Source: a virus (lineage: Duplodnaviria > Caudoviricetes). Taken from it: DNA of 36,762 nt. This document shows positions 1,102-1,198 of the stretch, piece after piece. Every line of letters starts with the position of its first letter. The stretch's first letter is position 1. Made by a program: the position numbers and the translations under genes. The notes below the pieces were generated by a model. That model was given only the letters and a program-made list of their open reading frames with translations, made no database searches and was not told the DNA's origin. The stretch lies in the IMG/VR virus record IMGVR_UViG_3300025325_000084, positions 1 through 36,762 of that record. One strand, written 5' to 3'.

Positions 1102-1198
1102 CTGATAGATACCGTACAATTTTGTTTATTAACATCCGAGCTTATTTCGGATACCACTGTACAAGTTAGTCCACTACTCTAGGTAGGATATCTATCAG
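1102..1198 (-). ncRNA. Candidate 97-nt three-way-junction RNA exactly filling the tRNA-Ile/tRNA-Asn spacer
   Basis: Perfect 10-bp terminal helix CTGATAGATA/TATCTATCAG. Internal arms CTAC/GTAG and GTACA/TGTAC, the latter capped by ATCCGA/TCGGAT. Confidence 0.55.

What the first reader, a model, noticed from the sequence alone, without database searches (positions are those of the whole stretch)
1102..1198. 97-nt three-way-junction RNA sandwiched with zero spacer between two tRNAs
Seen: the element begins at the base right after the tRNA-Ile discriminator and ends at the base right before tRNA-Asn +1. Its first and last 10 nt are perfectly complementary and it has two internal arms. Inference: normal tRNA 3' and 5' processing would release it as a discrete, end-protected RNA, so the phage would be using tRNAs as punctuation to produce an ncRNA. 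The architecture parallels the 10.1-10.5 kb units.
Basis: partly seen in the sequence, partly recalled or inferred. Interest (0 to 1): 0.7.

Follow-up and report, generated by a model that had tools for sequence, protein, structure and literature searches.

The report
Optional folded RNA between phage tRNAs
The 97 bases between two tRNA genes of this uncultured phage have perfectly matching ends and are predicted to fold into a small RNA that tRNA trimming would likely release, but a co-occurring variant has only 3 bases there, so it is likely an optional add-on like phage T4's unexplained small RNAs.

Summary
The sequence observation holds. Positions 1102-1198 (minus strand) fill the gap between tRNA-Ile(UAU) and tRNA-Asn exactly. 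The ends pair over 10 Watson-Crick pairs (12 with G-U), which 0 of 100,000 shuffles matched. The long arm is supported. The short arm is weak (pair probability about 0.4), so 'three-way junction' is only half shown.

New result: in 2 of the 4 public runs that cover the place (two studies), a second contig joins the same two tRNAs with 3 bases between them and carries a diverged tRNA-Ile. The element is therefore likely dispensable and strain-variable.

I found no Rfam match, no homologue in related phages, no second copy, no clear target-site duplication, no T-arm and no ribozyme core, so covariation could not be tested. Stem-closed spacers are common in relatives, but this is the only one of 21 that is flush at both ends. 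That masks the tRNA-Asn leader and would slow RNase P.

Best reading: an accessory T4 RNAC/RNAD-like co-transcribed small RNA; expression is untested. This scan has noted such tRNA-punctuated RNAs in at least 51 other genomes.

The parts
1102..1198 (-). 97-nt stem-closed spacer element (candidate small RNA); replaced by 3 bases in a second haplotype
   Evidence: folds; tRNA boundaries; joint 1101-1199 in runs X11 and X13
1187..1198 (-). P1 5' strand (12 nt), begins at the base after the tRNA-Ile discriminator
   Evidence: pair probabilities 0.88-1.00 alone
1102..1113 (-). P1 3' strand (12 nt), which is also the 5' leader of tRNA-Asn
1171..1186 (-). P2, weak 4-bp hairpin with two competing registers; a 4-nt palindrome in its loop
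   Evidence: pair probability about 0.4; z +0.8; suboptimal folds
1114..1162 (-). Long arm: P3 (7 bp, continuous with the P1 3' strand), 2-by-12 asymmetric internal loop with an A-rich side at 1121-1132, P4 hairpin (7 bp, 7-nt loop) at 1133-1153
   Evidence: z -2.9, 1 of 200 shuffles; pair probability 0.65-1.00
1199..1271 (-). tRNA-Ile(UAU), upstream neighbour, no full encoded CCA; diverged allele on the empty haplotype
   Evidence: Rfam 64.9 bits; differences
1029..1101 (-). tRNA-Asn(GUU), downstream neighbour
   Evidence: Rfam 59.8 bits
1275..1348 (-). tRNA-Thr(UGU), first tRNA of the cluster, 3-nt spacer to tRNA-Ile
902..1028 (-). second stem-closed spacer (127 nt) between tRNA-Asn and tRNA-Gly; no sequence similarity to the element
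   Evidence: z -2.4; alignment shuffle p 0.21
678..901 (-). tRNA-Gly(UCC), tRNA-Pro(UGG), tRNA-Arg(UCU), the rest of the six-tRNA cluster
1106..1109 (-). 4-nt direct repeat of the last 4 nt of tRNA-Ile (1199-1202), inside the P1 3' strand; possible deletion microhomology

Best explanation
The 97 bases are a self-complementary cassette between two phage tRNA genes that is missing from a co-occurring variant, and they are likely an accessory small RNA, predicted to be co-transcribed with the tRNAs and likely cut out by the host's tRNA-trimming nucleases. Steps: (a) shown: position, terminal complementarity, and a second contig form in which 3 bases replace the element beside a diverged tRNA-Ile. 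(b) predicted: a 12-bp closing stem stacked on a 7-bp helix, an A-rich asymmetric loop and a hairpin. (c) inferred: an RNase Z-type cut after the Ile discriminator and an RNase P cut before Asn +1 free a nearly blunt, exonuclease-resistant RNA, more slowly than usual because both sites are paired and need the stem end to fray. (d) inferred: the cassette is gained or lost by homologous recombination within the flanking tRNA genes. (e) least certain (about 0.4 if c holds): the released RNA acts in trans as a protein-binding decoy through the A-rich loop and hairpin, useful on some hosts only, which would explain why both forms coexist.
For: Terminal stem beyond chance (0 of 100,000), and the long arm is significant on its own. 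The tRNA strand folds better than the other strand (-27.7 against -24.1 kcal/mol; 4 against 2 G-U pairs; weak evidence). Among 164 loci of this phage and its relatives, 21 of 62 distinct inter-tRNA spacers of 45-260 nt are closed by an outer helix (2 of the 21 are this phage's own), so stem-closed units between tRNAs are a habit of this phage group. Empty form: joint 1101-1199 with the same 3 letters in X11 (depth 3.8 against 7.4 filled) and X13 (2.61 against 3.8), two studies. The empty contig has 5 differences in 102 nt (X11) and 2 in 54 nt (X13), the filled contigs none; P = 0.004 against a background of 7 in 702. Patchy exchange is seen elsewhere: 59 of 62 ungapped differences between two assemblies of this phage fall in 14334-14640. 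[quoted passage not shown]
Against: No homologue, so no covariation test: nhmmer over 164 loci, the model over 96 sources, 49 whole virus records (1 match, the same phage) and pattern scans gave self matches only; the best non-self model hit was 19.8 bits, E 0.05, with many broken pairs. The inside of the element as a whole is not more stable than shuffles (z -0.6), and the DNA fold of the plus strand is as significant (z -3.3) as the RNA fold, so DNA-level symmetry could explain the stem. Both processing sites are predicted paired. The empty contigs overlap the tRNA-Asn side by 30 letters, one short of the tool's bridging rule, so they may come from a close relative and not from the same population. 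Step (e) has no direct evidence.
Confidence: 0.5

Rival explanations
1. Functionless or decaying spacer: the inverted repeat arose at DNA level (for example by template switching that perfects a quasi-palindrome; mechanism recalled), the RNA is degraded after processing, and the hairpin makes it prone to deletion.
For: No homologue found; inner region z -0.6; the outer 10 pairs are all Watson-Crick and both strands fold. The last 4 nt of tRNA-Ile recur in the P1 3' strand and are followed by the same two letters that start the empty form's spacer (chance 0.0015 in shuffles, a test chosen after seeing the data); 97 of 104 short spacers in relatives start with C and the empty form's does not. 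This fits the empty form being a deletion product.
Against: The long arm is significant apart from the terminal stem (z -2.9); a simple slip would leave 4 bases, not the 3 seen; the empty form carries a diverged tRNA-Ile, so it is not a fresh deletion of this genotype; the filled form is the deeper contig in both mixed runs. Deletion of the cassette also does not show that it is functionless.
Confidence: 0.27
2. Cis-acting processing brake: the stem pairs the tRNA-Ile trailer with the tRNA-Asn leader and holds back both maturation cuts until a protein, helicase or refolding opens it, tuning the supply of these two tRNAs; the empty form is the constitutive allele.
For: Only 1 of 21 stem-closed spacers is flush at both ends; the usual offsets are 1-5 nt at the 5' side and 1-8 nt at the 3' side. 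Leader N-1 to N-7 unpaired probability 0.15 or less, trailer 0.08 or less. Designed hairpins that mask the 7-nt leader switch RNase P cleavage in E. coli (PMC8925977, passages).
Against: No alternative fold that frees the leader appears among the 12 best folds within 2 kcal/mol. The two outermost pairs may be a chance extension, because nearly all spacers begin with C (97 of 104), and fraying 2 nt costs only 2.8 kcal/mol. No natural example was read.
Confidence: 0.12
3. Miniature inverted-repeat transposable element (MITE) inserted between the tRNAs.
For: Perfect 10-bp terminal inverted repeat; presence/absence polymorphism.
Against: No second copy in the window or in the 38-kb record; flanks share only 1 nt; the empty form has 3 extra bases instead of one clean target site; no transposase among 49 window proteins scanned with Pfam. 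The genome is only about 42% complete and the host genome is unknown.
Confidence: 0.06
4. Self-cleaving ribozyme (theta/HDV-like or hammerhead) that trims the tRNA-Ile 3' end.
For: It starts exactly at a tRNA 3' end, like theta ribozymes (PMC10879173, passages); a hammerhead-like core word opens the element and a GAAA lies at position 51.
Against: A loose HDV-like topology is present but also in 67 of 300 shuffles; with a purine at +1 and G after P1 it is absent. Hammerhead stem II forms 0 of 4 pairs. No ribozyme family among Rfam hits up to E 10. My descriptors are hand-written from recalled consensus.
Confidence: 0.03

Closest known systems
Phage T4 RNAC and RNAD (species 1 and 2 RNAs)
   Same: Small non-coding RNAs in a phage tRNA region, function unknown (PMC3014915); similar size (about 138 and 118 nt in a T4-like phage) and uneven conservation (PMC12685909).
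   Different: No sequence similarity shown (no T4 hit); expression untested here; this element is 97 nt, flush with both tRNAs and absent from a co-occurring haplotype.
Stem-closed spacer RNAs in tRNA arrays of uncultured phages
   Same: Outer helix enclosing a multi-helix core between two tRNAs.
   Different: Those units leave a few single-stranded bases on each side and several recur in relatives; this one is flush and an orphan.
Theta ribozymes (minimal HDV-like, tRNA-associated; PMC10879173)
   Same: Begin at the 3' end of a phage tRNA gene.
   Different: No nested double pseudoknot with a purine at +1; here the 5' strand pairs with the far 3' end.
Synthetic RNase P riboswitches (PMC8925977)
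   Same: A hairpin directly before a tRNA masks the 5' leader.
   Different: They are designed and ligand-switched; no switch conformation or ligand is known here.
MITEs
   Same: Short, non-coding, terminal inverted repeat, presence/absence variation.
   Different: No dispersed copies, no clear target-site duplication, no transposase found.

Membership tests
T4 RNAC/RNAD-like stable RNAs of phage tRNA clusters | Lies within a phage tRNA cluster, same strand, non-coding | tested here: met
   stop codons in all three minus-strand frames across the region, no ORF of 45 aa or more over it
T4 RNAC/RNAD-like stable RNAs of phage tRNA clusters | Accumulates as a discrete stable RNA | not testable with these tools
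   no RNA run was listed for this stretch
T4 RNAC/RNAD-like stable RNAs of phage tRNA clusters | Sequence homology to rnaC or rnaD | tested here: not met
   blastn against 50,697 phage records: 7 weak hits at E 0.9-3, none T4 and none in a tRNA region
T4 RNAC/RNAD-like stable RNAs of phage tRNA clusters | Structure conserved in related phages | tested here: inconclusive
   no homologue found; nearest sampled relatives are only about 65% identical in a conserved exonuclease
Theta / HDV-like ribozyme | 5' end within 5 nt of a tRNA 3' end | tested here: met
Theta / HDV-like ribozyme | P1-P2-P3-P1.1 nested double pseudoknot starting with a purine | tested here: not met
   (hand-written descriptor); no Rfam hit
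Hammerhead ribozyme | Core words joined by stem II | tested here: not met
   0 of 4 stem II pairs
MITE | Terminal inverted repeat | tested here: met
   10 bp perfect
MITE | Target-site duplication | tested here: not met
   only 1 shared flanking base; empty form has 3 other bases
MITE | Dispersed copies | tested here: inconclusive
   none in the window or the 38-kb record, but the genome is about 42% complete and the host is unknown
tRNA, tRNA-like or YrlA-type RNA | T-arm and cloverleaf-like arms | tested here: not met
   no T-loop word; not called by ARAGORN or Rfam; no similarity to the six tRNAs (shuffle p 0.33-0.82)

The most novel reading that the evidence does not exclude
A natural, strain-variable tRNA-processing switch: a swap-in cassette whose closing stem clamps the trailer of one tRNA to the leader of the next, so that maturation of tRNA-Ile(UAU) and tRNA-Asn, and release of the small RNA, wait on a host or phage factor, while sibling phages carry the constitutive 3-base allele. 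It would be a natural counterpart of the designed RNase P riboswitches, with a built-in control allele.
Probability: 0.1. Interest if true: 0.7.

Novelty: new member of a known kind. Interest (0 to 1): 0.33.

Why it matters
The small RNAs in phage tRNA clusters have been known since T4 and still have no function. Most candidates come from conservation searches; this one comes with what looks like a natural knock-out allele in the same samples, which suggests that such units can be swapped like accessory genes and offers a ready filled-versus-empty comparison for processing assays. Its value is limited because it is an orphan from an uncultured phage with an unknown host, has no covariation or expression support, and similar units have been noted many times in this scan.

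Tried and rejected
Rfam at gathering score and up to E 10: only tRNAs, nothing on 1102-1198; a weak drum hit (18.9 bits against a gathering score of 43) overlaps the next spacer and tRNA-Asn and was dismissed. blastn against phages and plasmids: tRNA hits or chance hits only. Pattern scans of viral contigs: terminal-repeat pattern (stopped after 11 of 64 parts; none of its 120 loci had a tRNA or more than a 15-nt match); tRNA-Asn start (self only); two inner 16-mers (7 and 4 loci, only self scored); gapped stem pattern (62 loci, only self scored). Genome scan with the tRNA-Ile 3' end: one unrelated bacterial locus, no model match. The single metagenome scan went to an exonuclease alignment, so the element itself was not scanned there. 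Model R1 rests on one sequence and is weak for remote homologues. Sequencing runs: no RNA holder listed; X17 laid nothing, X18 and X19 did not cover the element, X12 has a gap at 1173-1187. Loop-loop pairing of 4 bp or more: only local alternatives, no pseudoknot. Promoter/terminator scan 500-2300: no site inside the element, counts at or below shuffles. Literature: no paper on T5 small RNAs surfaced; some searches were seen as listings only, apart from papers cited as read. In PMC10690425 (passages) 3 of 6 held supplement files were searched without a hit; 3 were not searched and 3 more were too large, so that catalogue may still list the element.

Full report
Setting. The window is a fragment of a phage genome with DNA polymerase A, RecA, DnaB, nucleases and tail-fibre genes; a 38-kb assembly of the same phage is estimated 42% complete. 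Six tRNA genes lie on the minus strand at 678-1348, none with a full encoded CCA. The host is unknown.

Observation. Rfam alignments end tRNA-Ile(UAU) at discriminator 1199 and start tRNA-Asn at 1101, so 1102-1198 is the entire spacer. On the tRNA strand it folds at -27.7 kcal/mol (z -3.5, 0 of 200 shuffles). The first and last 10 bases are perfectly complementary, 12 with a G-U pair; 0 of 100,000 shuffles gave a flush 10-bp stem. The stem survives in the whole-cluster precursor. The long arm is supported (z -2.9), the short arm is not (pair probability about 0.4; z +0.8), and the inside taken as a whole is not significant (z -0.6). The fold is best described as a 12-bp stem continuous with a 7-bp helix, an A-rich asymmetric loop and a 7-bp hairpin, with a loosely folded 24-nt side segment. 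The claimed parallel with the 10.1-10.5 kb units fails: two of those carry T-arms and have homologues in relatives, and 18 of 56 distinct loci have a T-arm-like word after the same upstream gene (this count includes two copies of this phage and some true tRNAs). The element has no T-arm and no similarity to them.

Homologues. No Rfam family matches. I collected 164 loci with three protein queries, 160 of them with an alignment of a nearby exonuclease; 65 have tRNA or tmRNA calls. nhmmer, a one-sequence covariance model and pattern scans found only copies from this phage. The nearest relatives sampled are about 65% identical in protein, so absence there says little, and covariation could not be tested.

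The empty form. Of 21 runs listed I laid 7. Four cover the element (X11, X12, X13, X14). In X11 and X13, from different studies, two contigs start at the same base in tRNA-Asn and end at the same base upstream: one carries the element with no differences, the other joins 1101 to 1199 with the same 3 letters between (depths 7.4 against 3.8, and 3.8 against 2.61). The empty contig has 5 differences in 102 nt in X11, two of them listed at tRNA-Ile positions 16 and 26, and 2 differences in 54 nt in X13. That is above background (P = 0.004 against 7 in 702), and the two empty forms differ from one another, which suggests crossovers inside tRNA-Ile (inference). Two assemblies of this phage also differ by one dense patch in the polymerase gene and 3 single bases elsewhere in 16.4 kb, so patchwise exchange with diverged relatives appears normal here. 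Caveat: the empty contigs share only 30 letters with the tRNA-Asn side, one short of the tool's bridging rule. That is the overlap expected at a branch of a 31-letter assembly graph (my knowledge), but the form could come from a close relative. Either way a near-identical tRNA pair exists without the element. Direction is open. A 4-nt direct repeat at the end of tRNA-Ile and inside the 3' arm, and the empty spacer's unusual first letter (97 of 104 short spacers begin with C), hint at an old hairpin-stimulated deletion, but a simple slip would leave 4 bases and some differences near the joint were not shown.

Processing. For tRNAs without encoded CCA, RNase Z cuts after the discriminator and RNase P removes the leader (PMC10424219, passages). 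Those two cuts would free exactly this element (inference). In relatives, 21 of 62 spacers of 45-260 nt are closed by an outer helix; only this one is flush at both ends, the others usually leaving 1-5 and 1-8 unpaired bases (12 of the 62 were set aside as likely coding, and z there came from 25 mononucleotide shuffles). Here the tRNA-Asn leader and the tRNA-Ile trailer are predicted paired, and freeing 2, 4 or 7 leader bases costs 2.8, 7.5 or 10.8 kcal/mol. A hairpin that masks the leader lowers RNase P cleavage in E. coli, and constructs whose basal three pairs fray are leakier (PMC8925977, passages). So the flush ends are more likely a kinetic cost than a design for clean release. The outer two pairs may be accidental, since the first base is the usual C after a discriminator.

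Verdict. Most likely (0.5) an accessory, co-transcribed small RNA of the T4 RNAC/RNAD kind (PMC3014915, PMC9697503, PMC12685909, passages), released by tRNA processing, dispensable, exchanged by recombination in the flanking tRNAs, and, least certainly, acting as a protein decoy. Rivals: decaying spacer with a DNA-level palindrome (0.27), cis-acting processing brake (0.12), MITE (0.06), ribozyme (0.03). It works like the T4 RNAs in position and size but is not shown to be a member by sequence or expression. Earlier notes of this scan list 52 findings in at least 51 genomes on the same theme; look-ups by place and by sequence found none on this DNA, and a words look-up for an empty allele returned none holding all words. 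I did not find this element in print, and the largest catalogue's supplements were only partly searchable. Interest 0.33: a real but familiar kind of feature, lifted slightly by the natural empty allele and the flush geometry.

Noticed in passing
window 10129-10358, minus strand: Two tandem tRNA-framed units (7-8 bp closing stem, 3' T-arm, long non-tRNA insert) after the 10556-11335 gene; not in Rfam; homologues at L149, L269, L143, L257 (E 1e-9 to 4e-8) and L215, L225 (E 0.003, 0.025). Better conserved than the 97-nt element.
   Followed up: partly
L153:15160-15990, L271:15060-16790, L272:14250-17520: A repeated stem-closed spacer module with a shared 11-nt motif: 9 copies in three related phages, directly after tRNAs; no Rfam match other than tRNA and tmRNA in these loci; absent from the window.
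   Followed up: partly
window 902-1028, minus strand: Second stem-closed spacer (127 nt, z -2.4) flush with the tRNA-Asn 3' end; run X19 holds a diverged copy of part of it (4 differences in 831-1002).
   Followed up: partly
window 14334-14640: A roughly 300-nt patch in the DNA polymerase A gene differs densely between two assemblies that are otherwise nearly identical.
   Followed up: no
L271:12262-12340, L272:12618-12695, L283:6875-6955: Units that look like a tmRNA head only (short acceptor and T-arm frame) between tRNA-Asp and the next tRNA; the likeness to tmRNA is recalled, not tested.
   Followed up: no
L121:11019-18334 (beyond the window's left end): The longer assembly continues with primase-like, dUTPase-like and two methyltransferase-like genes and a ribonucleotide-reductase-like gene with an intein-like insert (names read from the sequences, not scanned).
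   Followed up: no
window 19761-25052: Cluster of glycosyltransferase, FkbM-type methyltransferase and cytidylyltransferase genes, possibly for virion or DNA glycosylation.
   Followed up: no
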